From: a virus
Virus record (IMG/VR): IMGVR_UViG_3300045988_123080
Length of the DNA stretch: 64,000 nucleotides
Strand: one strand, 5' to 3'
Shown here: positions 6,396 through 27,594 of the stretch, one piece after another
Layout: each line of letters begins with the position of its first letter
How positions within the stretch are numbered: position 1 is the stretch's first letter
The notes under the pieces: generated by a model
What the model saw: only the letters and a program-made list of their open reading frames with translations
Told to the model about the DNA's origin: nothing
Databases searched by the model: none
Position numbers and translations under genes: made by a program

Positions 6396-6620
6396 ATGAT
6401 GGTATATGGAAACATAACGTGTAATCGCTGTGGCATTACATGGTATGGCCCTAAATGTGGAAAGCTCTATTGTGATAAATGTCGTAAGATAATAAGAAAT
6501 GAGGCATCCATTCGATGCAAGAATAAAAAGAAACATAAACCAACATTTGTTGAGATTGTAAGAATGGCAGATGCAGAGGGATTATCTTACGGAAAATACT
6601 GTTTGAAGTATGGAATTTGA
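6396..6620 (+). CDS. small Cys4 Zn-ribbon protein
   Basis: CNRCG...CGKLYCDKC motifs, 74 aa. Confidence 0.45.
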   Translation: MMVYGNITCNRCGITWYGPKCGKLYCDKCRKIIRNEASIRCKNKKKHKPTFVEIVRMADAEGLSYGKYCLKYGI

Positions 6621-7479
6621 GGTGAATGTAATGAACGCACTTGAGAATGAAAAGAAAAACGAGAATACGGTTGCTTTTGATTTTTCTGAATATGATTCTT
6701 CTAAAGAAGAAAGGCACCAGAAAGTAATCAAAAGGAATTATAACCTGACTCGGATGGAAGCGAATCATGGAACGGTTCAGCCGATTAAGGACAAAGAAGA
6801 TATTAAACGTATTTCAGAATATTTCTGGATTAAACGTCAGTACCGCAACTGGTGTTTGTTTAATGTAGGATGTTGCACAGGATTCAGAGCAAGTGATTTG
6901 CTTCGTTTGAAGGTTTCTGATGTAGCAGCTACAGATATGAATGGAAAGGTTGTGGTGAATTTCAACGCAAAACTTCGTGTTAAGGAAAAGAAAACAAATA
7001 AGTATCGCATTCTTAAAGTTCCGGTCCCGGCACTAAAGTGTATTCAAACTTATATCAATATTGATGGATTGTCTTATGACGATTGGCTCTTCCCGTCTCG
7101 GCAAGGCAGTTGGAAGAACTCCATGAGAACAAACGGTGGAACAAGCGTAAGTAAATCTGATGTGTTCCGTAAGTATGATGCAAATCCAAAAGAAATGGGC
7201 GATCCGCTTGATGTGGATTCTTTTGGTAGAATCATGCGTCAAGTTGGTAAGGAGCTAAATCTTCCTGTCCAGCTTGGTTCTCATAGCTGCCGCAAAACTT
7301 TCGGATATCAGTTTATTGCATCTCGTCCAAATGACATAAAAGCTCTTGCGTGGTTGCAGCATAGTCTAAATCACAGTAGTCAGGCAATTACGCTTCGCTA
7401 TATTGGTCTGGATGAAGAAGTGGATGATGAATACTACTCTGGGATTGATTATGGCGTGGACTGCCATGAAAACTCTTGA
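6610..7479 (+). CDS. tyrosine site-specific recombinase (XerD/integrase family), internal second copy
   Basis: Box I GFRASDL, HxxR (LGSHSCRKTFGY), catalytic LRY near C-terminus; probable start ATG ~6631 after GAGGTG. Confidence 0.7.
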   Translation: MEFEVNVMNALENEKKNENTVAFDFSEYDSSKEERHQKVIKRNYNLTRMEANHGTVQPIKDKEDIKRISEYFWIKRQYRNWCLFNVGCCTGFRASDLLRLKVSDVAATDMNGKVVVNFNAKLRVKEKKTNKYRILKVPVPALKCIQTYINIDGLSYDDWLFPSRQGSWKNSMRTNGGTSVSKSDVFRKYDANPKEMGDPLDVDSFGRIMRQVGKELNLPVQLGSHSCRKTFGYQFIASRPNDIKALAWLQHSLNHSSQAITLRYIGLDEEVDDEYYSGIDYGVDCHENS

Positions 7480-8183: not shown

Positions 8184-8585
8184 ATGGGGTTGTTACTTGG
8201 TTTGGGTTTGCTTGGAGCAGCGTTTGGTATTGATGCGGTAAAGCAAGCACCGTTCGATAGGGCATATCGCCGTCTCGAAAACGAATGGGGCACTTGTACA
8301 TCGGAAGAGAGTAAGCGGTGTGATGCTTTGAAGTATGCCGTGCAGAACGGTTTATGTTTTGAGAATGAAAAGAAGCCTGTGATTGAGTGGCAGAAGCTGA
8401 GAGATCTTCAGTGGAAGTATCAGCTGGCTGGCATCTCTTGGCCGAGAGAATCTGCGATTCGAGATGTGTGCCGTCTGGCAGCTCGTGATCGTGGATTTGA
8501 GTATAAGGGGTATCTGCGAAACACGTTGACGTTTGGTTATATCACTGATCCGAAAAACATTTGCAAGCTTGGTATTGTAGATTGA
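8184..8585 (+). CDS. hypothetical protein with hydrophobic N-terminus
   Basis: 133 aa, MGLLLGLGLLGAAFG N-terminus. Confidence 0.4.
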   Translation: MGLLLGLGLLGAAFGIDAVKQAPFDRAYRRLENEWGTCTSEESKRCDALKYAVQNGLCFENEKKPVIEWQKLRDLQWKYQLAGISWPRESAIRDVCRLAARDRGFEYKGYLRNTLTFGYITDPKNICKLGIVD

Positions 8586-8599
8586 AAGGGGATTTGAAA

Positions 8600-8905
8600 A
8601 TGAATAATAATCGCAGAAAAGCTATTAAGCAAACCATTGATCGCTTTGATTTCATCCGTAAGAAGCTGGAAGAGCTTGTATCGGAGGTCGAAAGTGTAAA
8701 ATCAGACGTCGAGAACATCCAGTGGGAAGAAGAAGAGTATCGTGACAACATGCCGGAGAATCTGCAGGGGGGTGAGCGGTATGATAAAACAGATGATGCT
8801 TGCACGAATTTGTCTGATGCTGTGGATGCTCTGGAGGATATGATTGGTGCTCTGGATTTTGACTTTGGTGATGTGACCACATCTCTGGAGGAAGCGATGG
8901 AATGA
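8600..8905 (+). CDS. hypothetical acidic protein
   Basis: track ORF 8561-8905; ATG 8600 after GGGGA SD. Confidence 0.4.
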   Translation: MNNNRRKAIKQTIDRFDFIRKKLEELVSEVESVKSDVENIQWEEEEYRDNMPENLQGGERYDKTDDACTNLSDAVDALEDMIGALDFDFGDVTTSLEEAME

Positions 8906-9090
8906 TTAACACAACAAACCCATTGAGGAGAAATGCATGGGCTGTGTTCTTGTATAGAGGTAGGCAAGTTTGTTCGTATCTTTTGCGTAATAGCAATCTT
9001 GGGGACAAGGAACGCATGGTAGAACTGCTGGCACGAAGGTACATGACAGAGCCAGAAAATATTGTTGTCGATATTGAATTTAGAGATTGA
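8902..9090 (+). CDS. hypothetical protein
   Basis: 62-aa ORF overlapping previous stop. Confidence 0.35.
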   Translation: MINTTNPLRRNAWAVFLYRGRQVCSYLLRNSNLGDKERMVELLARRYMTEPENIVVDIEFRD

Positions 9091-9185
9091 GGTGATAAAG
9101 AATGACCGCGTTTATGATATTTGCTTTGAATGTGGTGTTGATAATGGCAGTGAATAGTAATCCGTTTGCGTTTTGATTAAGAGGT

Positions 9186-9380
9186 GTGGATATGAGTATG
9201 TTGCAAGAAGAGTATAATTTGACGGATGAAGCACTTAAACAGTTGCTTTATGATATTCGACATCCGAGTATGGAAGCTGCTATACGTCGTGAAAAGATGT
9301 ACAAAACATATTTATCGAATGTAGATGTTGAATATGATGGTGAATCAGAAGTGGTTGATTTTAAAGATTTAGATATTTGA
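9186..9380 (+). CDS. hypothetical protein
   Basis: 64-aa ORF, GAGGTG SD. Confidence 0.4.
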   Translation: MDMSMLQEEYNLTDEALKQLLYDIRHPSMEAAIRREKMYKTYLSNVDVEYDGESEVVDFKDLDI

Positions 9381-9652
9381 CTGGAGGTGTAAATATGAAT
9401 ATTCTGAGTTTTAATGGAAATGAAAATCCAAAAGGGAGAGATGGTGATGCCGTTATCAAGTTAAGCTACCAGGAGCTGTTTAAGTTAAATAATATTTTGT
9501 ATCACGCTCAAAAAGGCGGTGAGATAAAGGACGTAGTGGACTTTAATATTCGAAGGAATTTTTACATGGCGCTTAATTTGGTTCAATATGGTAGTCTGGA
9601 TTCTGTTTCGCTAGAAATTATGTTAAAACTTTATGAAAACAATAAAACCTAA
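9377..9652 (+). CDS. hypothetical protein
   Basis: probable start ATG 9395 after GGAGGTG. Confidence 0.4.
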   Translation: MTGGVNMNILSFNGNENPKGRDGDAVIKLSYQELFKLNNILYHAQKGGEIKDVVDFNIRRNFYMALNLVQYGSLDSVSLEIMLKLYENNKT

Positions 9653-9669
9653 ATTCTTTGAAAGGATAA

Positions 9670-9921
9670 ATGGGAATGGATAGTAAGAAAACAAAAGAAC
9701 TGCGGGCTGGTGTTATGAAAGTTGTCAGCTGGTTGGATAATAATTGGCGTTGGATTCATACCAATGATTTTGGAAATGAAGAAAAGGCAATGGATTCCGT
9801 TGAGATTTACCATACAGTCTTGAATACTGTTGAGATGCTTGGTGGTGATTGGCAGCGTGACGAGAATGGAAAACATCGGGTGTTTATCGCCGGAGTTGGT
9901 GGAAAGGCAGAGACGGAGTAA
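9670..9921 (+). CDS. hypothetical protein
   Basis: 83-aa ORF. Confidence 0.4.
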   Translation: MGMDSKKTKELRAGVMKVVSWLDNNWRWIHTNDFGNEEKAMDSVEIYHTVLNTVEMLGGDWQRDENGKHRVFIAGVGGKAETE

Positions 9922-10026
9922 AATCCGGGTTCTTATGAGATTGCTGTAAAAAGCTTGACGATAACTGGTTATGCTGTTAAACTTTGCATAATCACAGAAT
10001 GCGCAAGCATGGAATGAGGTGGACTT

Positions 10027-10326
10027 ATGAATTTACAAGGACTTGAAAATAAAAAATGGGACTTTAATAAACAAGAGGAACTAGCTATCTCTTGGCTATT
10101 AAAACATGGCTTTGAGGTGAAATTGAAAAAACAGTATACATCAAAGGATATTTATACGGTAACAAAAGATGGTATTTTAGATGAATTTATCTTTCCGAAT
10201 AACCAGAAGAACATGAACGTTCGGGCTTTTATGGAAAGATATGAGAAAAATTTTGAAACAAAGAAAGAACTCATAAAATTAAGAGCAGAGGCATCGGCTA
10301 ATGGTTTGATTAAAGAACGTAGTTGA
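10027..10326 (+). CDS. hypothetical protein
   Basis: 99-aa ORF, GAGGTG SD. Confidence 0.4.
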   Translation: MNLQGLENKKWDFNKQEELAISWLLKHGFEVKLKKQYTSKDIYTVTKDGILDEFIFPNNQKNMNVRAFMERYEKNFETKKELIKLRAEASANGLIKERS

Positions 10327-10359
10327 TGTGATAAAAGTTAAGATTTAGGAGGATGTGTT

Positions 10360-10533
10360 ATGGAAGATAATACGAAGGAATTTGCAAGAGCTATTGATAC
10401 TGTAAATAAATTTTTGGATTGTGGAGCAATTGTTTTTGTCAAAGTAAAAGGAAATGAAAAATTGGTAAGACTTGAACAGATTGATATGTGTGCGCCATTA
10501 TCATGCCGTTTTAAAAATTCTGATAAGAGCTGA
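10360..10533 (+). CDS. hypothetical small protein (first member of AGATTTAGGAGG cassette array)
   Basis: 57-aa ORF below track cutoff; preceded by TAAGATTTAGGAGG motif shared with next four genes. Confidence 0.4.
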   Translation: MEDNTKEFARAIDTVNKFLDCGAIVFVKVKGNEKLVRLEQIDMCAPLSCRFKNSDKS

Positions 10534-10552
10534 GATTTAAGGAGATTGTAGG

Positions 10553-10828
10553 ATGGTTAAATTGAATAAGTGCCCATTTTGTGGGCATGAAGCGGTTTCC
10601 ATTAGTGTGTACGATGTTGACGAAAAGTGGAAAGGTTCGCTCGGATGTGATTTTGAGAAAGACCCGGATTACGGTATGGCATTGTATGCCTTACATCACG
10701 AAGAATGGATGAGCTGCATTCTTCGCTGTGATGACCAAGAAGAAGCACTTGGCGGGTTGTTTTTCAATTCTGCTAAAGAGGCTGAAAAGTATTGGAATGA
10801 AAAGACTGCAATGCTTGACAAAAGCTGA
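10553..10828 (+). CDS. Lar-family restriction alleviation protein (paralog 1)
   Basis: N-terminal KCPFCGHEAV and C-terminal YWNEK match Lar CPFCG...WN signature; GAGATTTAAGGAG upstream. Confidence 0.65.
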   Translation: MVKLNKCPFCGHEAVSISVYDVDEKWKGSLGCDFEKDPDYGMALYALHHEEWMSCILRCDDQEEALGGLFFNSAKEAEKYWNEKTAMLDKS

Positions 10829-10847
10829 GATTTAGGGAGACATAGTT

Positions 10848-11078
10848 ATGAGTGAATATAAATTAAAGCCGTGTCCTTTTTGTGGTGGAGAAGTTACCGT
10901 TGCAGAGGGCAGTTATCGCCAAACACGATGGATGTATGTTACGAGAGGAAACAAAGAAAATAGGTGCAACTGCCATGTTTTCATGGAAAGCAAAACTTAC
11001 TACTTTGATTCCTCTGAAAAAGACAAGGAAAGAATCAAAGCCGACCTTATCGAAGCGTGGAATAAGCGAGTCGAATAA
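10848..11078 (+). CDS. Lar-family restriction alleviation protein (paralog 2)
   Basis: MSEYKLKPCPFCGGEV...EAWNKRVE; GAGATTTAGGGAG upstream. Confidence 0.7.
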   Translation: MSEYKLKPCPFCGGEVTVAEGSYRQTRWMYVTRGNKENRCNCHVFMESKTYYFDSSEKDKERIKADLIEAWNKRVE

Positions 11079-11105
11079 AAACTAAGATTTAAGGAGAGAT
11101 ACATT

Positions 11106-11303
11106 ATGAAAAAATTCGTTGCTCTTTTTGAAGGTTGGAACGATAAGCATGACCATGAGTGTATGTGCTATGTTGTTGATGTAGATGATGACTTTGAAAG
11201 TATTTTGAGTATTGAAGAACAGGCAGAAAAGATGGCTCGAAGCGAATATCCTAATCTGAAAAATTTTGAGACGCTTTACATCAAAGAACTGCTTAACAGA
11301 TAA
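11106..11303 (+). CDS. hypothetical protein (cassette member)
   Basis: 65 aa; TAAGATTTAAGGAG upstream. Confidence 0.4.
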   Translation: MKKFVALFEGWNDKHDHECMCYVVDVDDDFESILSIEEQAEKMARSEYPNLKNFETLYIKELLNR

Positions 11304-11329
11304 GAATTAAGATTTAGGAGGAAATAGTT

Positions 11330-12106
11330 ATGCCGAGAAGGAAAACAGTAGAAGCACTGCAATTAACGCCGAAAGAAATAGCTCGGAAGTCGCCTACTTT
11401 TATGGAGCTTCCTGAGATGGTAAGCCGTGCTGGTGAGCCTACATACTATTATGATGTGGGAGATGCTGTAGAGATTGGTCATCTTAGCGGATGCAAGATT
11501 GATGAAGTCTGCGACGGTGGTTTATATTACGGTGTTTCTTACGATGATGGATATAGGTACGAAACGTGGTTTAACATTCGTAAAGCAGGTGTTGAGAAGA
11601 AATCTCAACTGACAGAGAATGAAGATATTAAGATTTCTTACTCAAACGTGACTATTGAATCTTTACTTCACAGATACTATTTCTTTGGCATCAATTGTAA
11701 TCCGAGCTATCAACGCGGATCTGTGTGGACGGATGATGACCGTAAACTGCTTCTTGAAACAATTTTTATGGGTGGTGAAATTGGTCGATTCGTTTTAAAA
11801 AATATTGATATGGACGAATGGAATAAAAATCAGAATTACCTTTATGAAATCATTGATGGAAAGCAGAGACTTCTGACACTGACTGCATTCTACGAAGATC
11901 GTTTCCGTTACAAAGGATATCTGTATAGTGAACTCTCTAAAAAGGACAAGAGAACTTTTAATGAGACTAATATTGCTATTGCAGATTTACGGAATCTTTC
12001 TAAGAAAGATACGTTGCGTGTGTTCTTGTTGTTGAATCGTGGCGGCAAGGTTGTTACCAACGACGTACTTAATCACGCAAAAGAGTTGCTGGACGAAATG
12101 GAGTGA
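11330..12106 (+). CDS. DUF262 (ParB/GmrSD-like nuclease domain) protein
   Basis: PSYQRGSVW...IDGKQRLLTL matches DUF262 QR...DGQQR signature; TAAGATTTAGGAGG upstream. Confidence 0.6.
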   Translation: MPRRKTVEALQLTPKEIARKSPTFMELPEMVSRAGEPTYYYDVGDAVEIGHLSGCKIDEVCDGGLYYGVSYDDGYRYETWFNIRKAGVEKKSQLTENEDIKISYSNVTIESLLHRYYFFGINCNPSYQRGSVWTDDDRKLLLETIFMGGEIGRFVLKNIDMDEWNKNQNYLYEIIDGKQRLLTLTAFYEDRFRYKGYLYSELSKKDKRTFNETNIAIADLRNLSKKDTLRVFLLLNRGGKVVTNDVLNHAKELLDEME

Positions 12107-12110
12107 GTGA

Positions 12111-12446
12111 ATGATTTATACGGTTACAATGATTGACTCGTTTAAGAACGATCAGAATGCGAAATTCAGTTCGCCAGTGTCAAACACCAAAGACATCTAT
12201 TGGATGCCGGATGATAGTTGGATTGCTGGATTCTTTACAGATTTAGCAGAGGCTATTCGAGTTGTTAAAGAAAACGTGACTGACATCTTTGAACATTGTT
12301 ATAATTACGCAGTCGTTGAAGGATACGAGGAAGGTCTGTATCCAAGACCGGAATTGACGAGGTGGTTTAAATATGATGCTGAGAGTGACACAGCATTCGA
12401 GATTGAACCGCCGCTGCATAATAAGGTGGCTGGATATGCCTTTTGA
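12111..12446 (+). CDS. hypothetical protein
   Basis: 111-aa ORF. Confidence 0.4.
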   Translation: MIYTVTMIDSFKNDQNAKFSSPVSNTKDIYWMPDDSWIAGFFTDLAEAIRVVKENVTDIFEHCYNYAVVEGYEEGLYPRPELTRWFKYDAESDTAFEIEPPLHNKVAGYAF

Positions 12447-12464
12447 AGAAAGGGGATAGGAGTT

Positions 12465-12656
12465 ATGAATAGCATAAAATATGACGAGAAGGGAAATAGA
12501 CTGAATCGAATGCAAGTTATTCGGAAGATGGATAAGTTTCGAGTTTCAATGCTTCTTGAGCAGATTGTCAAGCATTCTGAGGATTATCCGTTTTCCAGAG
12601 AAGAATGGTTAAAATGGTTAAATGAACCTGCAGGAGATCGTATTGATGAGTTTTGA
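12465..12656 (+). CDS. hypothetical protein
   Basis: 63-aa ORF, GGGGATAGGAG SD. Confidence 0.4.
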   Translation: MNSIKYDEKGNRLNRMQVIRKMDKFRVSMLLEQIVKHSEDYPFSREEWLKWLNEPAGDRIDEF

Positions 12657-12680
12657 TAAAACCAATATTTTTGAAGGGAA

Positions 12681-13307
12681 GTGATTTTTATTAACTCTAA
12701 TTTGTTAATAAATCGTGAGCAAAGTGTTGCCATCGTGTGTATAATGTGCTTGCTGGCAGGGAATCTGGTATCGAAGATCAGCCCGGTAATTCAAAATCAG
12801 AGCAATTCGTACCTTTATAATAGTAGTCCTCCGGCAGTAAGTGTTGTGCAGCAAGAGGAAAAGGAACCAGAAGTCATCGTAAAAACTGTTATCGAGACGC
12901 GTGTGGTAAACTTCAGTCAGGGAAAGCGCGAACTCACTAATGATGAGCGTGCTCTTGCGGAGCAGATCGTTGCTTGTGAAGCAGGTGCTGATAGCCTAGA
13001 AGGTCAGATGGCTGTGGCTCAATGTCTTTATGATTCTGCTGTACTTGATGGTCTAACCATCCAGCAGGTCTTTAAGAAGTATGGTTATAGTTCCTTATAT
13101 AATAGGAAGGTGACGGCAGAGAACGAATTGGCTGTGTCTATGGTGTTTGATTACGGCGCTAAAATTTCAAACAAACCAATTCAATGGTTTGTGACCCCGG
13201 CGGCAGCTTCCGGCAGTTGGCACGAGCACGGAGCAACGTTCGCTGGACAATTTGGCGCACATAGGTTCTATTACAACGCGGAACTGGTTGTGGATGATGC
13301 CGAGTGA
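12681..13307 (+). CDS. putative SleB-like cell wall hydrolase (Hydrolase_2) with N-terminal TM
   Basis: EQIVACEAGADSLEGQMAVAQCLYDS resembles SleB/CwlJ Hydrolase_2 core; hydrophobic N-terminus. Confidence 0.45.
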   Translation: MIFINSNLLINREQSVAIVCIMCLLAGNLVSKISPVIQNQSNSYLYNSSPPAVSVVQQEEKEPEVIVKTVIETRVVNFSQGKRELTNDERALAEQIVACEAGADSLEGQMAVAQCLYDSAVLDGLTIQQVFKKYGYSSLYNRKVTAENELAVSMVFDYGAKISNKPIQWFVTPAAASGSWHEHGATFAGQFGAHRFYYNAELVVDDAE

Positions 13308-13342
13308 ATGGCATCATCTAAAATTTTAAACTTTTACAACAA

Positions 13343-13400
13343 CAAAAAGATGTATAATATATTGACCAAAACAAAAAGATGTGTATAATATATCTTGAAA
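13343..13400 (+). promoter_or_regulatory. tandem imperfect ~27-bp repeats each carrying TGTATAAT -10-like box
   Basis: acaaaaagatgtataatata / acaaaaagatgtgtataatata; TTGACC 15 bp upstream of the second. Confidence 0.4.
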
Positions 13401-13413
13401 GTTGTCTAAATGA

Positions 13414-13758
13414 GTGGAGGGCGGTGTTTTAATGCGTGAGAGAAATGTTCTGAAGGTCATACGAGTTGATGACTTTTTAAAGTACATAAGAAAAAAGAGA
13501 GTGTGGGTTTGTTTTATTTGCAATGGTGTAGATGTTCACATGGTCTGTAACAAAATGAACGATGTTGGAGCAGAGACACATGGGATCGTTAAAGGCATTG
13601 GCTTCTTCGGAAACGAAAGTCATATTGAGCTGCGGCAAGAATGCCACGAAGTAAGGAGGATTGAGCTTAGACCGGGCGATAAAGAGAAAGCGTATGAGAT
13701 GATCTTCGATAACACAAGCGTGTTCGTATCAGAGAACCCCGAGTTGTACGGGCACTAA
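13414..13758 (+). CDS. hypothetical protein (upstream of MazF-like gene)
   Basis: probable ATG 13432 after GGAGGGCGG; 109 aa; no MazE-like motif seen. Confidence 0.4.
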   Translation: MEGGVLMRERNVLKVIRVDDFLKYIRKKRVWVCFICNGVDVHMVCNKMNDVGAETHGIVKGIGFFGNESHIELRQECHEVRRIELRPGDKEKAYEMIFDNTSVFVSENPELYGH

Positions 13759-13848: not shown

Positions 13849-14268
13849 ATGGATAGTAATATTGACCCAAAGGTCGGAGAGGTTTGGTTGGTTGATCTAT
13901 CCAATGCGACAGGTCACCAGCAGCGCGGTATTCGACCGTTTGTTGTGACGAGCAACAACAAGCGCAACTTCTTCAGTCCCACAATCAAAGGGAATCCGTT
14001 GTCTTCCAGAATATACAAGCGTTCTCCGGTTCATGTCCTGCTCTCAAAGGAAGATTGCGATTTTCTGGATGTTGACAGTATCGTTCTTTGTGAAGAGACC
14101 GATACACTTAACAAAGGACAGTTCATCAAGAAACTTGGTGTCTTATCGGAGCGTCAGATGAATATGATCGCAATGGCAAGATGCAAGGATGAACCGTTCT
14201 TACTCGCAGCATTCCTGAGCGGCGTACAACATACTATGGAATTTCAGAATTTTGCCGCATTTGCTTGA
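13849..14268 (+). CDS. MazF/PemK-family endoribonuclease toxin-like protein
   Basis: GEVWLVDLSNATGHQQRGIRPFVVTSNNKRN...SIVLCEETDTLNK...LGVLSERQMNMIAMA matches PemK/MazF signature. Confidence 0.7.
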   Translation: MDSNIDPKVGEVWLVDLSNATGHQQRGIRPFVVTSNNKRNFFSPTIKGNPLSSRIYKRSPVHVLLSKEDCDFLDVDSIVLCEETDTLNKGQFIKKLGVLSERQMNMIAMARCKDEPFLLAAFLSGVQHTMEFQNFAAFA

Positions 14269-14321: not shown

Positions 14322-15248
14322 ATGCTTACTGAAGAGAAAATCAACGCTTTTGCCGAAAAGTATTCTGATAGAAGCGGTGAGTTTGTTATATCGACACTTA
14401 ACCATGTTATGGATTACGAGGCCGAGCGTGGGTATGAGTTGTTTGACTTCACAAAAGATGATTTTGTAAAGATGTTTGCCAAATACAATTGGGTGAATTC
14501 AAGTCGGTCGTTCAGAAATGTAAAGTCAATAATTACAGGTTACATCAAAAGTGAGTATCGAGCGAGCATGTATGACTTAGCTGAATTCTCGGAGAGCGAC
14601 GTGAGTTCAGACAATATGTACGAGGACAAGTATTTTGCGTCAGCTGATGAGTTTGTTGATTTCTTGGACAAGTATGAAGAACCATATCAGATTCGTATGA
14701 ACGTGATTGCCGTGCTGTACTGGATTGGTCTTACTTCCGAAGAGGTTTCTAATCTGACAATTAACGATGTTGATTTTGAATCATGTACTGTTCTGAATAA
14801 GACCGGTGTTGACGCGAGATTGATGAATATCATTAAGCAGTGTTATGAAATGAAACAATACGATGCTCCAAATATGGGAGGATACAGAACGTTTTATGTC
14901 ATAAATGGTGATTACATTCTTCGCAAAACAGAGGATAGAACTGGTGCAGACAGTGATTCAAGAATGTCTACAAATACGATTCATAGTTATTTCACGCGCT
15001 TGAATGATATTCTCGAAAGAAGATATCATTCAAAGGCTTTAGACCGAAGACATCTGACCAGAAACGGCGAGTATGTCAAGGTTTATAACTACTGTAAAAC
15101 TCATCCAGAATTTAATCTTGCAGAACTTAGTTTCGGAAATGGTAAAGATCCTCTTGCGGACATTATCGGAAGAAAGTGCAGCAAGGTTGCCTACATTAGT
15201 TTCCGGCAAGGATACAAGGGCTGGATCGAATACTTCCACAAAAATTAA
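14322..15248 (+). CDS. hypothetical protein with degenerate tyrosine-recombinase-like box I region
   Basis: IAVLYWIGLTSEEVSNLTINDVDF resembles recombinase box I but Arg replaced by Thr; no HxxR/Y evident. Confidence 0.3.
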   Translation: MLTEEKINAFAEKYSDRSGEFVISTLNHVMDYEAERGYELFDFTKDDFVKMFAKYNWVNSSRSFRNVKSIITGYIKSEYRASMYDLAEFSESDVSSDNMYEDKYFASADEFVDFLDKYEEPYQIRMNVIAVLYWIGLTSEEVSNLTINDVDFESCTVLNKTGVDARLMNIIKQCYEMKQYDAPNMGGYRTFYVINGDYILRKTEDRTGADSDSRMSTNTIHSYFTRLNDILERRYHSKALDRRHLTRNGEYVKVYNYCKTHPEFNLAELSFGNGKDPLADIIGRKCSKVAYISFRQGYKGWIEYFHKN

Positions 15249-17870: not shown

Positions 17871-20081
17871 ATGAGAACTTTGCTTCTTTTCCGTGGAGCA
17901 CCCGGATGCGGGAAGTCCACCTATATTAAAGAGCATGATCTGGAAAAGTATACGCTTAGTGCCGATACGATTCGCCTTATGTGTCAGGGTGGTCAGGAAA
18001 CCCCGGCTGGCACAATGGAGATCTCTCTCCAGAACGATGGTGTTGTCTGGGATATGCTCTTTAAACTGTTGGAGGTTCGGATGTCTCACGGTGAATTTAC
18101 CGTGATTGATGCAACGAACTCTAAAACTGTCGAAATCAATCGCTATAAGAATCTTGCCAAGCAGTACAGGTACAGAATGTACATCATCGACATGACTGAT
18201 TTGCCGATTAGCGAGTGTAAACGGCGTAATGCGCTTCGCACTCCTCTGAAGAGAGTCCCGGATGCTGCCATTGATAAAATGTATGCACGATTCGCAACGC
18301 AGAAGATTCCGTCTGGTGTGACTGTACTCTCGTCAGATGTAAATGTCCTTGAGAAATTGAACTATGTTCCGCAGGACTTTAACAACTGGAGCAAAATTCA
18401 TATCATCGGTGATGTGCATGGGTGTTACAGTTGCTTGAAAGAGTATCTTGGCGACCTGAAGGATGATGAACTGTATATTTTTGTTGGCGATTATCTGGAT
18501 CGTGGAATTGAAAATGTAGAGATGTTCAAGTTCCTTTGTGATGTTGTAGACAATAATCGGAAGAATGTGATTTTCCTTGAAGGAAATCATGAACATTGGC
18601 TAAACAAGTGGGGGCACGATGAGCCTGTTCAGAGCGAGGAGTTCGCAAACTACACTCGTCCGCAGCTTTTCAAAGCAGGGATTGACCATAATACGGCTCG
18701 TAAGGTTTATTCGAGAGTAGGACAGTGCTCCTATTTTGATTACGACGGGAAAAGATACTTCGTTAGCCATGGTGGTTTGAGTTATTTGCCTGAATTTCTA
18801 CCATTCGTGTCTACTGACCAGATGATTAAAGGTGTAGGTCGCTATCCTGATATGCTAACCGTGGCTGAGTCTTGGGAAAAATCGATGCCGGATAGCTACA
18901 TTCAGATCTTCGGTCATCGAAATGTGCAGGATGTTCCTATTGATATGGGGCATCGGTGCTACAACCTCGAAGGAAAAATCGAGTTTGGTGGATATCTCCG
19001 TTGCGTGGAACTTGAACATGGTCAGTCAATCAAATGTGTAGAAACAAAGAATGATGTGTTCCGAAAAGAGGAGCCAAAGACTGAAACTGCCGTTGAAATG
19101 AAAACTGAGTTCGATAACGCAGAACTTGTCAGTAAGATGCGTCAAAGCAAATATGTGTTTGAGAAGCGATTCGGAGATATTTCTTCTTTCAACTTTTCTC
19201 GTGAAGCATTTTATAAGAAGCATTGGGATGAGGTTTCTACCAAAGCAAGGGGATTGTTCATTAACACAAAGACGAATAAGATTGTAGCTCGAAGCTATGA
19301 TAAGTTCTTTGCGGTCGATGAGCGGAATGAAACGAGAATTGGAAACCTACAGAACACTTTGAAGTTCCCGGTGACTGCATATCTGAAGGAAAACGGATTT
19401 CTTGGCATTGTCTCGTATGATGCAGAAAAGGATGGTATGTTCATTGCAAGTAAATCCACTCCTGAAGGGCCTTTTGCAGATATGTTCCGAAAGATTCTCA
19501 TGGATACGACCTCTGATGAAGACCGTAAGAATCTGAAGGAAGTTGCAAAAGAGAATGGCTCCATCATTTTTGAAGTGATTGATCCTGTGAATGATGCTCA
19601 TATCATCGAATATAAGAAACCGCACATTGTTTTGCTGGATATTGTTGCGAATGATATGAACTTTAGTGTGATGGATTACGATGATCTGAAGCGTGTTGCT
19701 GAAAAGTGTCATTTGCAGATTAAGGAGAAGGTTAAGACTTTTGAGAACTGGAGTGAATTCTATTCTTGGTACGAGGAAGTCATGAACGAGAACTATCTGC
19801 ATCATGGCTTTGAACACGTTGAAGGCTTTGTTTTGCGAGACAGCAACAATTTCATGTTTAAGATGAAGCTTCCTTATTATAAGCACTGGAAGTTCTTGCG
19901 TGGTGTTATGCAGAGCGTTCAGAAGCGTGGCTATTATGAAAATACTGCAAAGTTGTTTACTGCTGAAGATAATTTATTCTATGGTTGGATGCGTGAACAA
20001 CGAGAGAAAGACAAAGAGTCTTTCTGCAAGAAGGGTATTATTCAGTTACGGAACGAATTCTATGAGAATCAGCACGAATAA
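17871..20081 (+). CDS. pnkp: polynucleotide kinase-phosphatase-ligase (Pnkp-like RNA repair enzyme)
   Basis: Walker A GAPGCGKST kinase; calcineurin-type phosphoesterase GDVHGC / GDYLDRG / GNHEHW; C-terminal nucleotidyltransferase-like KENGFLG; same order as Clostridium thermocellum Pnkp. Confidence 0.75.
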   Translation: MRTLLLFRGAPGCGKSTYIKEHDLEKYTLSADTIRLMCQGGQETPAGTMEISLQNDGVVWDMLFKLLEVRMSHGEFTVIDATNSKTVEINRYKNLAKQYRYRMYIIDMTDLPISECKRRNALRTPLKRVPDAAIDKMYARFATQKIPSGVTVLSSDVNVLEKLNYVPQDFNNWSKIHIIGDVHGCYSCLKEYLGDLKDDELYIFVGDYLDRGIENVEMFKFLCDVVDNNRKNVIFLEGNHEHWLNKWGHDEPVQSEEFANYTRPQLFKAGIDHNTARKVYSRVGQCSYFDYDGKRYFVSHGGLSYLPEFLPFVSTDQMIKGVGRYPDMLTVAESWEKSMPDSYIQIFGHRNVQDVPIDMGHRCYNLEGKIEFGGYLRCVELEHGQSIKCVETKNDVFRKEEPKTETAVEMKTEFDNAELVSKMRQSKYVFEKRFGDISSFNFSREAFYKKHWDEVSTKARGLFINTKTNKIVARSYDKFFAVDERNETRIGNLQNTLKFPVTAYLKENGFLGIVSYDAEKDGMFIASKSTPEGPFADMFRKILMDTTSDEDRKNLKEVAKENGSIIFEVIDPVNDAHIIEYKKPHIVLLDIVANDMNFSVMDYDDLKRVAEKCHLQIKEKVKTFENWSEFYSWYEEVMNENYLHHGFEHVEGFVLRDSNNFMFKMKLPYYKHWKFLRGVMQSVQKRGYYENTAKLFTAEDNLFYGWMREQREKDKESFCKKGIIQLRNEFYENQHE

Positions 20082-20150
20082 CTAAGATATTTTCTTCCTC
20101 CGAAAATGCCCTGCGCGGGGCTGACAGCCGGGAAAGACTGGCAATTATAT

Positions 20151-20240
20151 GCCCAAGTGATGGAATGAGGTAGACATGAAGCTCCCAAACAGCTTTGCGT
20201 GAGATATCGCGTGCGGTTTCGAATACCGCCTTGGGCACCA
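20151..20240 (+). tRNA. class II tRNA, probable tRNA-Leu(CAA), unusual C33
   Basis: 7-bp acceptor gcccaag/cttgggc + ACCA; T-arm gcggtTTCGAATaccgc; anticodon arm aagct-cccaaac-agctt; long variable arm. Confidence 0.5.
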
Positions 20241-20280
20241 GAGTCCGAATATTCACCTATTAAATACTGGAGGCAAGTTC

Positions 20281-20478
20281 ATGAAAAGAATTGAAAAATT
20301 TTCAAAAGAAGAGATCGAGCAGATTTTTAAAGAGAGCAACAACTGGGCTACTGTGGCTGAGAAACTTGGTTACAGCAAATTCGGAGGAAGCTCTAGGGAT
20401 GTAATCCAAACATATGCAGACGAAAATAATATTGACACTTCTCATTTTACGGGACAAAGAATAATTCCAAAAGAATGA
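20281..20478 (+). CDS. small hypothetical protein, possible HTH/NUMOD-like DNA-binding
   Basis: 65 aa, WATVAEKLGYS segment; sits between tRNA genes. Confidence 0.35.
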   Translation: MKRIEKFSKEEIEQIFKESNNWATVAEKLGYSKFGGSSRDVIQTYADENNIDTSHFTGQRIIPKE

Positions 20479-20499
20479 AGCTGTATTTTATACAGCTTC
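20477..20499 (+). other. 9-bp stem hairpin (processing/terminator-like) before tRNA-Leu
   Basis: gaagctgta-tttta-tacagcttc; no strong T tract. Confidence 0.3.
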
Positions 20500-20506
20500 T
20501 GTATAT

Positions 20507-20594
20507 GCCGCAGTGATGGAGTGACATACATTTCCCGCTTAAACCGGGACGCCTGAAACACGGATCGTGGGTTTGAATCCCACCTGCGGCACCA
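20507..20594 (+). tRNA. tRNA-Leu(TAA), class II
   Basis: acceptor gccgcag/ctgcggc + ACCA; anticodon arm tcccg-cttaaac-cggga; T-arm gtgggTTTGAATcccac. Confidence 0.7.
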
Positions 20595-20598
20595 TATC

Positions 20599-20671
20599 CA
20601 GAATGTAGTGTAATGGCAGCACGCTGCGTTTGGGACGCAGAAGAGCGATTCGAATTCGACATTTTGGACCA
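20599..20671 (+). tRNA. tRNA-Pro(TGG)-like, imperfect D and T stems
   Basis: acceptor ccagaat/attttgg (one GU) + ACCA; anticodon arm ctgcg-tttggga-cgcag; T-loop TTCGAAT but only 3-bp T-stem. Confidence 0.4.
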
Positions 20672-20767
20672 GTGGAGTATTCCACTTGCTTTTCATGAAT
20701 ACCTTCCTATTATTCTTGGCTCTCCAAAAAAACGGAGCAGTAGGACGCAGCAAGCCAAGTTACATAA

Positions 20768-20857
20768 TGAGGGTTCGCCAAGTGGTAAATGGCATCTGGC
20801 TTTGACCCAGACAGCGTGCTTTATAGCCGATCGTCGGTTCGATCCCGACACCCTCAA
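20768..20857 (+). tRNA. tRNA-Gln(TTG) with ~16-nt insertion in variable region
   Basis: acceptor tgagggt/accctca; Gln-like D-arm gccaagtggtaaatggc; anticodon arm tctgg-ctttgac-ccaga; 21-nt variable region; T-arm gtcggTTCGATCccgac; no encoded CCA. Confidence 0.55.
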
Positions 20858-20862
20858 TTTAT

Positions 20863-20951
20863 GGACACGTGATGGAATCGCAGACATGAAAGATTTAGGC
20901 TCTTTTGCCGTTAACAACGGTGTGCCCGTTCAAATCGGGTCGTGTCCACCA
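20863..20951 (+). tRNA. tRNA-Leu(TAG), class II
   Basis: acceptor ggacacg/cgtgtcc + ACCA; anticodon arm aaaga-tttaggc-tcttt; variable hairpin ccgtt-aaca-aacgg; T-arm gcccgTTCAAATcgggt. Confidence 0.7.
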
Positions 20952-21054
20952 TTATCAACTTATGGTTGCGTACCGTTTGTTGATCTCCTTTGACCACTAT
21001 TATTCCCGGCTCGCCAGTGATGGTGCAGTAGTGCTTTGTAAGTCGGGTTTTCAT

Positions 21055-21129
21055 GCAGCGGTCGTACAACGGCTAGTACATCAGCCTTCCAAGCTGAGGA
21101 CGAGGTTTCGATTACCTTTCGCTGCACCA
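21055..21129 (+). tRNA. tRNA-Gly(TCC) (A73 discriminator)
   Basis: acceptor gcagcgg/tcgctgc + ACCA; D-arm gtac-aacggcta-gtac; anticodon arm tcagc-cttccaa-gctga; T-arm gaggtTTCGATTacctt. Confidence 0.6.
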
Positions 21130-21310
21130 GTCTCGTACGGGTAGGATCTTTAGCGGTTAGATCCGGCCGCGCCTGTGCGAGATACCACCCCGAAAGGGGT
21201 TAACGAAATTATCCATGTACGTTATTCTCGGCTCGCTCGGAAGAGTGCAGCGTGCCTTTGTAAGCCGAGTATCCCAGCCTAGTAATGTCAGTTGCTAGGT
21301 TGGTTCTTAT

Positions 21311-21386
21311 GCGACTGTAGTTCAATTGGCAGAGCGTCAGATTTCCAATCTGAATGTTGCGGGATCATACCCCGTCAGTCGCTCCA
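21311..21386 (+). tRNA. tRNA-Gly(TCC) (U73, C2:G71, G3:C70), atypical T-loop
   Basis: acceptor gcgactg/cagtcgc + TCCA; D-arm gttc-aattggca-gagc; anticodon arm tcaga-tttccaa-tctga; T-loop atcatac non-canonical. Confidence 0.55.
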
Positions 21387-21517
21387 CACGCAGCCCCTTA
21401 CGCTGCACCGGTTACTCAGAGCCGAAAGAAACCTATATGTTACGACATGGTTGCCAAGAGTGATCATATTGGAACGCGACGTAGCTTGGATAGTGAGAAT
21501 TAAATTCTGAGGTATAC

Positions 21518-21585
21518 GGCTGGATAGCTTAATGGTAAAAGCGCTCGGAAACACCGAGAGATAAGGTTCGATTCCTTCACTGGCA
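21518..21585 (+). ncRNA. tRNA-like element / probable pseudo-tRNA
   Basis: canonical D-arm tagcttaatggtaaaagc and T-arm taaggTTCGATTccttc but no complementary acceptor stem and a 5-nt anticodon loop (ctcgg-aaaca-ccgag). Confidence 0.35.
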
Positions 21586-21613
21586 TCGCGCCGATGAAAG
21601 TCGGCGTTTGCAT

Positions 21614-21689
21614 GGAATAGTAGCTCAGTTGGTTAGAGCCGACAACTTATAATTGTCAGACGCGAGTTCAAATCTCGACTATTCCACCA
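21614..21689 (+). tRNA. tRNA-Ile(TAT) (or AUA-reading tRNA)
   Basis: acceptor ggaatag/ctattcc + ACCA; D-arm gctc-agttggtta-gagc; anticodon arm gacaa-cttataa-ttgtc; T-loop TTCAAAT. Confidence 0.65.
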
Positions 21690-26445: not shown

Positions 26446-27594
26446 ATGGCTATGATTCGTAAGGCATCTGCTGTTCGTAAGAAGCTTCATATGCTGATTT
26501 ATGGTGAACAGGGAACTGGTAAATCTCGTACTGCTATGCAGCTGTGCTATCTGAAGAATGCAGACGGTAAGCCATTCCGTGTTCTGTATTTGGATACCGA
26601 GAATGGTTCTATTGATAATTACACCGAGGAACTGGAAGCTAATGGTGTGAATCCTGACAATCTGTTGATTGTTTACACCCAGTCTCTGGCAGAAGTTCAG
26701 GATTATATCAAAATGGTTACCAACGATGAGGACATCGAGGATGAGAATGGAGATGTTTATCTGGACGCAAATGGCAAGCCGTTCCGTGCAGACGCTTTGG
26801 TTGTTGACTCTGCATCTATTCTCAAGATGACAGCCACTCAGGGGCTCACCGCCTTCTCGCAGAAGCGTGCCAAGGTTAAGGCCGCATCTCAGGGTCTGAC
26901 TGGTGATGAAAAGGCAGTTAAGATTGAGGGTGCTGGCATGGAGCTCAAGGATTTCAATACCCTGAACTTCAAGGGTCAGTCTCTGATTTTGGATCTGAAT
27001 GCATCTGGTGTGAACTACATCGTTGTTTGCCGAGAGAAGGACGAGAAGCATACTAAGGTTGTGAATGGTTCTATCGTAAGTGAGCCTACTGGTCGTAAGA
27101 TTCCTGATGGGTTTGCTGGTCAGGAGTATAACGTTGATACGGAGTTCCGTCTGTATTTCCAAGATGGTCAGCAGCTCGCTTTCTTTGATAAGGATCGTAC
27201 TGGTATGCACAAGGGCGGTGAGGTTGTCGAGGATCTGACCCTGCTTGAGTATCAGGATATTATTTCTAGCAGTGCAAAGAATCGAGAGAACATTATCAAA
27301 AACGGTCTGAATGATGCTGTTAAAACTGAGGTTAAGTTGAGTATGCGTGACCTTGGCATCGAAAATGATGAGACGGATGATGTTCCAGTGCACAAGAATT
27401 CTGAATCTAAGGAACCTTCCATGGATGACATCAAGAAAAAGCTGAACGACCTGGTTGCCGCAGCTTCTCCTGTAAAGAGCAGTGCCGCACAAAAGGCTGT
27501 GCGGGCAGCAGGTCTGTCTACTGCGTTCCGTTCTATGACTGATATCGAGGAACTGAAGAAGGTTGCCGTAATCATGGAGAAGGAACTGGCTTAA
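26446..27594 (+). CDS. Sak4-like RecA-fold ATPase (AAA_24 family)
   Basis: LHMLIYGEQGTGKSRTAMQL Walker A typical of phage AAA_24/Sak4; 382 aa. Confidence 0.5.
   Translation: MAMIRKASAVRKKLHMLIYGEQGTGKSRTAMQLCYLKNADGKPFRVLYLDTENGSIDNYTEELEANGVNPDNLLIVYTQSLAEVQDYIKMVTNDEDIEDENGDVYLDANGKPFRADALVVDSASILKMTATQGLTAFSQKRAKVKAASQGLTGDEKAVKIEGAGMELKDFNTLNFKGQSLILDLNASGVNYIVVCREKDEKHTKVVNGSIVSEPTGRKIPDGFAGQEYNVDTEFRLYFQDGQQLAFFDKDRTGMHKGGEVVEDLTLLEYQDIISSSAKNRENIIKNGLNDAVKTEVKLSMRDLGIENDETDDVPVHKNSESKEPSMDDIKKKLNDLVAAASPVKSSAAQKAVRAAGLSTAFRSMTDIEELKKVAVIMEKELA

What the first reader, a model, noticed from the sequence alone, without database searches (positions are those of the whole stretch)
10330..12110. 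Cassette array of five genes sharing an AGATTTAGGAGG upstream motif: two Lar anti-restriction paralogs and a DUF262 protein
Five consecutive genes (10360, 10553, 10848, 11106, 11330) are each preceded by the same ~14-nt sequence, (T/G)AAGATTTARGGAG, extending beyond a plain SD. This suggests cassette-like acquisition or a shared post-transcriptional control element. Two members are divergent paralogs of the Lar restriction-alleviation protein (CPFCG...WN(K/E)). The last is a DUF262 (ParB/GmrSD-type) protein, a domain typical of modification-dependent restriction enzymes and some anti-phage systems but here phage-encoded. The two small unknown members (10360, 11106) are candidate novel anti-defence proteins.
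Basis: partly seen in the sequence, partly recalled or inferred. Interest (0 to 1): 0.65.

Follow-up and report, generated by a model that had tools for sequence, protein, structure and literature searches.

The report
Stop-plus-ribosome-site linker between swappable phage genes
Five neighbouring small genes of a human-gut phage are separated by the same 24-base linker, which carries stop codons in all three reading frames plus a ribosome-binding site; in more than 100 related viral genomes this linker marks the points where about 50 unrelated small genes have been swapped in and out.

Summary
Five copies of a ~24-nt sequence, (T)GATAARAGYTRAGATTTA(R)GGAG(G), lie at 10329-11321. There are none elsewhere in the 64 kb (5 found, 0.01 expected).

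It is not a generic Shine-Dalgarno context. Each copy carries TAA, TRA and TAR stops, one per frame, then GGAG(G) 7-9 nt before the next ATG. I found no promoter, terminator, hairpin, dyad or Rfam family in it.

In IMG/VR and human-gut metagenome relatives I found 255 distinct linker contexts preceding 49 gene families. In the IMG/VR subset (210 contexts) there are 121 different neighbour pairs. Where cassettes differ, similarity falls to random exactly at the linker edges. Many cassettes are at least 98% identical in different contexts.

Three linker subtypes keep a fixed order. The linker and ten cassette families are shared by two unrelated backbones: ~130-kb phages and ~58-kb Rep3/ParA elements.

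Best reading: translational punctuation that also serves as the short homology for cassette shuffling, analogous to T4 PeSLs but without their promoter or terminator.

On the proteins, one Lar-family call holds (10848) and the other is marginal (10553). The DUF262 domain holds, but the GmrSD nuclease half is absent. The anti-defence role is untested.

The parts
10329..10352 (+). Linker copy 1, subtype a (TGATAAAAGTTAAGATTTAGGAGG). Lies 7 nt before the ATG at 10360.
   Evidence: The upstream ORF stops at TGA 10324-10326, then continues in frame as TGT GAT AAA AGT TAA into the linker.
10521..10544 (+). Linker copy 2, subtype b (TGATAAGAGCTGAGATTTAAGGAG). Contains the TGA stop of gene 10360-10533.
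10816..10839 (+). Linker copy 3, subtype b (TGACAAAAGCTGAGATTTAGGGAG). Contains the TGA stop of gene 10553-10828.
11073..11096 (+). Linker copy 4, subtype c (GAATAAAAACTAAGATTTAAGGAG). Contains the TAA stop of gene 10848-11078.
11298..11321 (+). Linker copy 5, subtype c-like (AGATAAGAATTAAGATTTAGGAGG). Contains the TAA stop of gene 11106-11303.
10027..10326 (+). 99-aa ORFan immediately upstream of the first linker (left flank of the array).
10360..10533 (+). Cassette: 57-aa ORFan ending in the linker-encoded DKS*.
   Evidence: Present in L002, L021, L022 and L026 with other right-hand neighbours.
10553..10828 (+). Cassette: 91-aa Cys-rich protein with a CPFCG knuckle. Only a marginal Lar-family hit.
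10848..11078 (+). Cassette: 76-aa Lar-family zinc-ribbon protein.
11106..11303 (+). Cassette: 65-aa ORFan. It is the most promiscuous cassette, with 10 different upstream and 7 different downstream neighbour families. Confident beta-beta-alpha-alpha-beta model with no structural match.
11330..12106 (+). 258-aa protein: an unassigned N-terminal ~95 residues followed by a DUF262/GmrSD_N (ParB-like, DGKQR) domain. Right-hand anchor of the array.
9955..9983 (+). Candidate sigma-70-type promoter (TTGACG, 17 nt, TAAACT, with TG) that could drive the array.
   Evidence: The sequence recurs 330-390 nt upstream of the first linker in 9 contexts. This is a consensus match only.
9642..9660 (+). A different conserved linker (J2) bounding an upstream slot of the same variable region.
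9150..9176 (+). A different conserved linker (J1) at the left edge of the variable region, after the conserved gene 8902-9090.

Best explanation
The motif is a clade-specific ~24-nt intercistronic linker, (T)GA-TAA-AA-GY-TRA-GATT-TAR-GGAG(G). It terminates translation in whichever frame the upstream gene ends: TAA at -9, TRA at -2 and TAR at +5 relative to the A of AGATTTA. It then supplies a strong, unstructured Shine-Dalgarno site 7-9 nt before the next ATG.

It separates small, co-oriented and probably co-transcribed accessory genes in a hypervariable region. That region lies between conserved genes (window 8184-9090) and the DUF262 gene.

Because the same linker flanks every cassette, it also provides the short homology at which cassettes are exchanged, duplicated or lost. 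The proposed mechanism is homologous recombination between co-infecting relatives, using the phage's own recombination genes (Sak4/RadB-like, RecJ-like, RecD-like) or the host's. Any gene dropped between two linkers is automatically terminated and translated.

Shown here: the repeat, its restriction to one locus, its three-frame stops, the absence of promoter, terminator or hairpin, the sharp homology edges, the combinatorial neighbours, the recency of exchange, and the sharing by two backbones.

Inferred: the recombination mechanism, the translational effect, and any anti-defence role of the cassettes.
For: Specificity:
- 5 copies against 0.01 expected, and none elsewhere in 64 kb.
- Each related contig has one array locus.
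- A scan of 596 Gb of bacterial genomes gave 20 isolated single hits. My estimate of the chance expectation is ~17 (own arithmetic).
- All 41 exact hits in metagenomes come from gut assemblies; those that carry a label are labelled human gut.

Cassette behaviour:
- 210 unique contexts, 63 flanking families and 121 distinct neighbour pairs.
- The extended set has 255 contexts and 49 downstream families with a median length of 73 aa. All linkers of a locus lie on one strand.
- When flanking genes differ, identity is ~0.26 outside the linker and 0.8-0.99 from -11 to +12.
- Of 719 pairs with the same downstream but a different upstream cassette, 208 are at least 95% identical and 117 at least 98% identical.
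- Subtypes GTTA, GCTG and ACTA keep their order, with 16, 21 and 11 alternative downstream families respectively. Repeated subtype units, including the window's two b copies, show changes in unit number.

Stop codons:
- Ascertaining on the right half only, TAA at -9 is 94-99% conserved. T-R-A at -2 holds in 138 of 139 contexts, with R split 50:50. 131 of 139 linkers have stops in all three frames.
- 159 of 210 upstream ORFs end on a stop inside the linker.
- By comparison, three-frame stops occur at 3 of 64 equivalent positions before other genes.

Other points:
- No promoter or terminator lies inside the array. There is no fold or dyad and no Rfam family.
- 60 loci have the large-phage backbone and 25 the Rep3/ParA/NikA-like backbone, with 10 shared cassette families.
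- Window 11101-12119 is 94.5% identical to L005, which is otherwise unrelated.
- Recombination genes are present in the window.
Against: - No recombination event was observed directly.
- About 24 nt is near the lower limit for homologous recombination (my own knowledge, not tested here).
- The fixed subtype order and the association of subtype with both neighbours (0.80 and 0.84 against a 0.49 baseline) mean that part of the diversity could arise from collinear allelic replacement rather than free cassette movement.
- The invariant AGATTTA core is explained by neither stops nor SD, so an additional RNA-level function is likely.
- Most loci were retrieved with the motif itself. Motif-poor relatives are therefore under-sampled, and positions inside the search pattern are conserved partly by construction.
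- Some arrays have degenerate linkers (L004-L009 and L138).
Confidence: 0.65

Rival explanations
1. The conserved core is primarily a post-transcriptional operator. AGAUUUA(R)GGAG on the mRNA would be bound or cut by a phage or host factor, such as a RegA-like translational repressor, a RegB-like endoribonuclease that cuts in GGAG, or the window's own MazF-like toxin. This would co-regulate all cassettes. Shuffling would then be only a by-product of the repeated sequence.
For: - AGATTTA is 96-99% conserved although it is neither a stop codon nor the SD.
- It always lies on the sense strand at a fixed distance from the start codon.
- The region is unstructured and therefore accessible.
- A PemK/MazF-family endoribonuclease gene lies 2.5 kb downstream.
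- RegA and RegB as precedents come from my own knowledge.
Against: - No candidate binding factor was identified.
- No complementary sequence, which could give an antisense RNA, occurs anywhere in the window.
- The left half of the linker is conserved as stop codons, with R-only variation that preserves TGA/TAA. An operator would not require that.
- The same cassettes (11106 family and DUF262) occur in Rep3/ParA elements behind a different or degenerate leader.
- This rival is not mutually exclusive with the main explanation.
Confidence: 0.2
2. The linker is the target of a site-specific recombinase, in an integron-like capture system run by the tyrosine recombinase encoded at 6610-7479.
For: - A Phage_integrase-family gene is conserved about 3 kb upstream of the array in the large phages.
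- The cassettes are small, promoterless and co-oriented, as in integrons.
Against: - The recombinase does not match the integron-integrase models. It has no TIGR02249 hit, and its best NCBIfam score is 33 bits against a cut-off of 220.
- The linker has no inverted repeat or hairpin of the attC kind. Self-complementarity is 12-14 of 27 positions, and fold z-scores range from -0.85 to +1.47.
- The ~58-kb Rep3/ParA elements carry the same linkers, yet no match to this recombinase was found in their fetched loci.
- The ordered subtypes fit homology-guided rather than site-specific exchange.
Confidence: 0.05
3. The repeats are passive relics. Either a gene plus its leader was tandemly duplicated several times and the coding parts diverged or were replaced, or the motif is just this phage's preferred ribosome-binding context.
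For: - The window has two adjacent Cys-knuckle (CPFCG) genes behind two subtype-b linkers.
- L105 shows a duplicated a-b-c series.
Against: - The motif is absent from all other genes in the 64 kb.
- The five window cassettes are unrelated apart from a 13-residue knuckle.
- The linker is more conserved (0.88-0.97) than the adjacent homologous coding sequence (0.72-0.79).
- About 50 unrelated families sit behind it, with recent exchange at 98% identity or more.
Confidence: 0.07

Closest known systems
PeSL (promoter-early stem-loop) regulatory cassettes of T4-type phages (Arbiol et al. 2010, PMC2839356; Comeau et al. 2014, PMC4122927)
   Same: - A repeated, conserved intergenic motif concentrated in a hyperplastic region.
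- It is mostly placed just upstream of small ORFans.
- It includes the upstream stop codon and the downstream SD.
- It is proposed to be both an expression signal and the homology for modular shuffling.
   Different: - PeSLs span ~100 bp and are transcriptional units, with a sigma-70 promoter plus a stem-loop terminator.
- The linker here is ~24 nt with no promoter, terminator or stem-loop. It is purely translational punctuation inside an operon.
- It has a three-frame stop design and three ordered subtypes.
- It is shared by two unrelated replicon types.
- Mini-circles were shown for PeSLs and were not tested here.
Short conserved 'boundary/linker' sequences at module junctions of lambdoid and other mosaic phages (as summarised in PMC3029335)
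   Same: - Short homology at gene boundaries where non-homologous modules meet.
- It is proposed to guide homologous recombination.
   Different: [quoted passage not shown]
- Here one defined sequence recurs up to 10 times per array and in 255 contexts, with a recognisable functional design.
Integron cassette arrays
   Same: - Arrays of small, promoterless, co-oriented and highly variable cassettes.
- They are separated by a recurring boundary element and read from an upstream promoter.
   Different: - There is no integron integrase and no attC-type imperfect palindrome.
- The boundary is 24 nt and carries translation signals.
- Exchange appears to be homology-guided.
Conserved regulatory leaders used to find anti-defence genes in archaeal viruses (PMC11065993)
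   Same: A shared upstream sequence marks a set of otherwise unrelated small viral accessory genes (abstract only).
   Different: That signal is a transcriptional regulatory sequence. Here the shared element is a stop-plus-SD linker, and an anti-defence function is not demonstrated.

Membership tests
PeSL-type shuffling cassettes | Repeated conserved intergenic motif flanking variable ORFans in a hyperplastic region | tested here: met
PeSL-type shuffling cassettes | Sigma-70 early promoter inside the motif | tested here: not met
   No promoter-like site lies at any of the five linkers. Conservation spans only -11 to +12.
PeSL-type shuffling cassettes | Stable stem-loop acting as terminator or attenuator | tested here: not met
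   MFE z-scores range from -0.85 to +1.47 and no conserved helix is found. No terminator-like site lies at the linkers.
PeSL-type shuffling cassettes | Recombination between motifs (excised mini-circles, chimeric motifs) | not testable with these tools
   Only indirect evidence is available. The 11106-family gene sits behind subtype-b or subtype-c left halves with the same right half.
Integron | IntI-type integron integrase adjacent to the array | tested here: not met
   The 6610-7479 protein has no TIGR02249 hit, and all its scores are far below the cut-offs.
Integron | attC sites: imperfect inverted repeats that fold as hairpins | tested here: not met
Integron | Promoterless cassettes expressed from one upstream promoter | tested here: inconclusive
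   No internal promoters are found. A candidate promoter lies at 9955-9983, by consensus match only.
Phage 'boundary sequence' mosaic junctions | Homology between genomes with different modules confined to a short sequence at the gene boundary | tested here: met
Lar restriction-alleviation family (PF14354 / TIGR03655) | Profile match above the curated cut-off, gene 10848-11078 | tested here: inconclusive
   Pfam gives 39.0 against 28.6 (pass). NCBIfam gives 33.9 against 39.6 (fail). PHROG 599 gives E 5.7e-9.
Lar restriction-alleviation family (PF14354 / TIGR03655) | Profile match above the curated cut-off, gene 10553-10828 | tested here: not met
   Pfam gives 16.5 against 28.6. There is no NCBIfam or PHROG hit. 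hhalign aligns only 15 columns.
Lar restriction-alleviation family (PF14354 / TIGR03655) | Alleviation of type I restriction in vivo | not testable with these tools
   Needs an experiment.
GmrSD-type (DUF262 + DUF1524) type IV restriction enzymes | N-terminal DUF262 / ParB-like domain with a DGQQR-type motif | tested here: met
   PF03235 scores 58.2 bits. The sequence IIDGKQRL is visible directly.
GmrSD-type (DUF262 + DUF1524) type IV restriction enzymes | C-terminal DUF1524 His-Me nuclease domain | tested here: not met
   The protein is 258 aa and the DUF262-type match runs to its C-terminal end, so there is no room for a second domain. Pfam lists only GmrSD_N (PHROG match to residue 256).

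The most novel reading that the evidence does not exclude
The linker is a selected, integrase-free 'universal adaptor' consisting of a three-frame stop, an SD and a recombination handle. It would make small counter-defence or host-takeover genes plug-and-play. It would also act as a common currency through which unrelated mobile elements of one gut host (~130-kb phages and ~58-kb phage-plasmids) draw on a shared pool of about 50 cassettes. In function this would be a phage analogue of the integron that runs on homologous recombination.
Probability: 0.3. Interest if true: 0.8.

Novelty: new variant of a known kind. Interest (0 to 1): 0.62.

Why it matters
Accessory-gene regions are where anti-defence and host-takeover genes accumulate in phages. 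How they turn over so fast without producing dead recombinants is only partly understood.

This locus offers an unusually clean, sequence-defined case with four useful properties.
- A 24-nt element's design (stops in all frames plus an SD) explains why any insert is expressed correctly.
- Its repetition explains where exchanges happen.
- The element can be searched for directly. It therefore acts as a handle to harvest about 50 families of small, mostly unknown gut-phage proteins for anti-defence screening. These include Lar-like proteins and a NAMPT.
- Its presence in two unrelated replicon backbones makes inter-element gene flow in the gut measurable.

The design is also a natural counterpart of synthetic insulated translation junctions.

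Tried and rejected
- **Generic SD:** rejected. The motif is absent from every other gene start in the 64 kb.
- **Promoter or terminator in the linker:** none found.
- **RNA structure or dyad symmetry:** none found. Rfam has no family in 8800-13400.
- **Antisense partner:** there is no reverse-complement copy in the window.
- **GenBank phages:** no DNA similarity for 9300-12700. A flotillin-like protein gave only 28-49% identity, to gut, Enterococcus and Listeria phage records, so taxonomy and host remain unknown.
- **Bacterial genomes:** only chance-level single hits, so there is no host clue.
- **Integron model:** rejected on both integrase and attC criteria.
- **Gene 10553 as a Lar paralog:** only the CPFCG knuckle aligns.
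- **Function of gene 11106:** homologues exist only inside this clade (at least 75% identity) and are all unnamed. The AF2 model is confident (pLDDT 93) but has no PDB match below E = 0.1.
- **PADLOC:** only the DUF262 protein gave significant hits (best NsnA, E 2.7e-18). Two other proteins had chance-level hits (E about 0.004-0.007).
- **PDB sequence search with the DUF262 protein:** nothing.
- **Literature:** searches for the motif string or for similar translational linkers found nothing relevant.
- **Not attempted:** structure prediction of the 10360 product, and a host assignment.
Full report
**1. Observation**

Reading 9800-12800 and listing ORFs shows six consecutive + strand genes: 10027-10326, 10360-10533, 10553-10828, 10848-11078, 11106-11303 and 11330-12106. 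The last five are each preceded by AGATTTA, an optional purine, then GGAG(G), ending 7-9 nt before the ATG.

A regex scan of both strands finds this pattern, and looser forms down to ATTTA[N]GGAG, only at these five places in 64 kb. The similarity extends leftwards. The 23-mer GATAARAGYTRAGATTTARGGAG matches five times with at most 3 mismatches, against 0.01 expected from dinucleotide shuffles.

The repeat is therefore real, is about 24 nt rather than about 14, and is not the window's generic ribosome-binding context. Other genes have plain GGAG-type sites.

**2. Anatomy**

I number from the A of AGATTTA as position 0. The linker reads T(-12) G A T A A A A G Y T R A(0) G A T T T A (R) G G A G.

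It holds a TAA at -9, usually preceded by an in-frame TGA at -12. It holds a T-R-A at -2 and a TAA/TAG at +5. That is one stop codon in each frame, followed by the SD.

In the window, genes 10360 and 10553 both end ...DKS* on the -2 stop. Genes 10848 and 11106 end on the -9 TAA. Gene 10027 stops five codons earlier but continues in frame as C-D-K-S-stop into the linker.

All five copies have three-frame stops. This compares with 5-17% of composition-matched shuffles, 0.7% of all 22-mers, and 3 of 64 equivalent positions before other genes.

Nothing else was found in the linker:
- No promoter-like or terminator-like site lies at the linkers. A candidate promoter (TTGACG, 17 nt, TAAACT) lies at 9955-9983.
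- The linker regions do not fold (z from -0.85 to +1.47) and have no dyad symmetry.
- Rfam finds nothing in 8800-13400.

**3. Relatives**

GenBank phages have no DNA match. The DUF262 protein retrieves 26 IMG/VR loci at 88-97% identity, and the motif itself retrieves 92 stretches.

In the 12.8-kb loci, the genes corresponding to window 8184-9090 and the DUF262 gene are conserved. The 2-3 kb between them holds a different set of small genes in almost every genome. Those genes are separated by the same linker.

Counts across the IMG/VR loci plus the window:
- There are 210 non-redundant linker contexts, 63 flanking protein families and 121 different upstream-to-downstream family pairs.
- The family of window gene 11106 has 10 different left neighbours and 7 different right neighbours.
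- Adding 41 human-gut metagenome hits gives 255 contexts but only 49 downstream families, so the pool looks close to sampled.
- The median cassette is 73 aa, and within every locus all linkers lie on one strand.

**4. Boundaries and recency**

Where two contexts share neither neighbour, per-position identity is 0.23-0.33 outside the linker and 0.8-0.99 between -11 and +12. If only one neighbour is shared, homology continues on that side only (example alignment).

Positions -11 to -9 were outside the search pattern, so their conservation is not by construction. When I ascertain on the right half alone (139 contexts), the results are as follows:
- TAA at -9 is 94-99% conserved.
- T-R-A at -2 holds in 138 of 139, with R split evenly between G and A and never a pyrimidine.
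- 131 of 139 linkers keep stops in all three frames.

Of 210 upstream ORFs, 159 terminate on one of the linker's stops: 81 at -2, 41 at -12 and 37 at -9.

Among 719 pairs with the same downstream but a different upstream cassette, 208 are at least 95% and 117 at least 98% identical over the first 150 nt. Exchanges are therefore recent relative to the divergence of these genomes.

Between contexts with both neighbours shared, the linker (0.88-0.97) is more conserved than the adjoining coding sequence (0.72-0.79).

**5. Ordered subtypes**

The tetranucleotide at -4 to -1 defines three subtypes: GTTA (a), GCTG (b) and ACTA (c). They almost always occur in the order a, b, c along an array, with occasional repeated units.

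They have 16, 21 and 11 alternative downstream families respectively. Subtype is predicted by both neighbours, at 0.80 and 0.84 against a 0.49 baseline.

So the array behaves largely as a series of slots with alternative occupants, plus unequal exchanges. The window itself is a b b c c, and L105 is a b b c a b b b c c.

Two further, different linkers bound upstream slots and precede 6-7 alternative families each. These are J1 at window 9150-9176 and J2 at 9642-9660.

**6. Two backbones**

Sixty motif-bearing loci carry the large-phage markers (window 6610-7479, 8184-8585 and 8902-9090 homologues; contigs of 100-148 kb). Twenty-five carry a Rep3 initiator, ParA and a NikA-like gene immediately upstream of the array (contigs of ~55-63 kb). 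None carries both.

The two classes share 10 cassette families. Locus L005 matches the window only over 11101-12119 (gene 11106 plus DUF262) at 94.5% identity. Its left edge lies 5 nt past the 3' end of linker copy 4, just before the ATG at 11106. In these elements some leaders are degenerate versions of the linker.

In 596 Gb of bacterial genomes the motif gives only 20 isolated hits in unrelated taxa. I estimate about 17 expected by chance (own arithmetic), and these hits lack the GAT extension. The element is thus specific to this gut mobile-element community.

**7. Mechanism**

The best-supported reading is that the linker is translational punctuation that doubles as the homology for cassette shuffling.

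It ends any upstream ORF regardless of frame and restarts translation from a strong, open SD. Any gene placed between two linkers is therefore correctly expressed from the operon's promoter. Being repeated and conserved, it is also where related genomes can cross over.

The window encodes plausible recombination functions: a Sak4/RadB-like protein at 26446-27594, a RecJ-like exonuclease, a RecD/Dda-like helicase and a ligase. Phage annealases are reported to recombine short, diverged sequences (PMC8093625 and PMC5928155, abstracts).

The recombination step and the translational effect are inferences. The length of ~24 nt is near the lower limit for homologous exchange (my own knowledge). The invariant AGATTTA is explained by neither stops nor SD, so an added RNA-level role remains a live, non-exclusive rival. 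Such a role could be a binding or cleavage site, and a MazF-like toxin gene sits at 13849-14268.

A site-specific, integron-like mechanism is disfavoured on three grounds:
- The nearby tyrosine recombinase is not an integron integrase.
- There is no attC-like palindrome.
- No match to that recombinase was found in the fetched loci of the Rep3/ParA elements that share the linker.

**8. The proteins**

- **Gene 10848** is a Lar-family zinc ribbon by Pfam and PHROGs, but falls under NCBIfam's cut-off.
- **Gene 10553** shares only the KLxxCPFCG knuckle with it and fails all thresholds.
- **Gene 11330** has a DUF262/GmrSD_N domain with DGKQR and best matches NsnA in PADLOC. It lacks the DUF1524 nuclease half.
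- **Gene 11106** is confined to this clade. It folds confidently as beta-beta-alpha-alpha-beta and has no structural match.
- **Gene 10360** has no hit at all.

Among cassettes in relatives, the only recognisable ones are further Lar-like proteins, a NAMPT, an AAA ATPase and a DUF1653 protein. An anti-defence theme is plausible but rests on few annotations.

**9. Comparison and novelty**

The closest known system is the PeSL of T4-type phages. This is a repeated intergenic motif in hyperplastic regions that supplies expression signals and mediates modular shuffling (PMC2839356; PMC4122927).

The present element differs in kind of signal (translational rather than promoter plus terminator), in size (~24 nt against ~100 bp) and in its three-frame stop design. 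It also differs in its ordered subtypes and in being shared by two unrelated replicons.

It also fits the older idea of short boundary sequences. [quoted passage not shown]

I found no description of this motif or of a comparable stop-plus-SD shuffling linker in the searchable literature. That library is incomplete. I rate it a new variant of a known kind, with interest 0.62.

Noticed in passing
window 9150-9176 and 9642-9660: Two other conserved linkers, GTGAATAGTAATCCGTTTGCGTTTTGA and ATAAAACCTAAATTCTTTG, bound further slots of the same variable region. In relatives each precedes 6-7 alternative gene families.
   Followed up: partly
window 11101-12119; L005 5773-6790: The two-gene block (65-aa ORFan plus DUF262) is 94.5% identical to a ~58-kb Rep3/ParA/NikA-like element that is otherwise unrelated. 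This indicates recent transfer between replicon types. 25 such plasmid-like loci carry the linker array directly after the NikA-like gene.
   Followed up: yes
window 10324-10341: Gene 10027-10326 ends on a TGA that is followed in frame by TGT GAT AAA AGT TAA. It looks as if an older linker-encoded ...DKS* end was cut short by a new stop.
   Followed up: no
window 13849-14268: A PemK/MazF-family endoribonuclease toxin gene (69.8 bits) lies in the phage. The upstream 114-aa ORF (13414-13758) has no family hit and could be its antitoxin.
   Followed up: no
window 17871-21689: A 736-aa kinase-phosphatase-RNA ligase fusion (Pnkp-like RNA repair enzyme) is followed directly by eight tRNA genes: Leu x3, Pro, Gln, Gly x2 and Ile. 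The layout suggests a counter to tRNA-cleaving defences.
   Followed up: no
L052 (linker at ~2995, - strand), also L045 and L028: A 492-aa nicotinamide phosphoribosyltransferase (NAPRTase plus NAMPT_N domains) is one of the cassettes sitting directly behind a subtype-b linker in relatives.
   Followed up: partly
L105 704-3370: This is the largest array seen, with ten linkers in the series a b b c a b b b c c. It looks like a duplication of the whole a-b-c unit.
   Followed up: partly
window 11085-11108: Linker plus spacer (AGATTTAAGGAGAGATACATTATG) resembles the phage T7 gene 10 leader used in expression vectors (TTTAAGAAGGAGATATACATATG, quoted from memory). This may be convergence on a strong initiation region.
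   Followed up: no
window 6610-7479, 14322-15248, 41197-42360, 62587-63753: The window holds several recombinase or transposase genes: a short tyrosine recombinase, a weak MrpR/XerA-like ORF, an IS200/IS605-type transposase homologue and a full-length integrase.
   Followed up: partly
window 9955-9983: A promoter-like sequence (TTGACG, 17 nt, TAAACT, with TG) recurs in 9 distinct contexts, always 330-390 nt upstream of the first linker. In some relatives the second hexamer reads TATGCT.
   Followed up: partly
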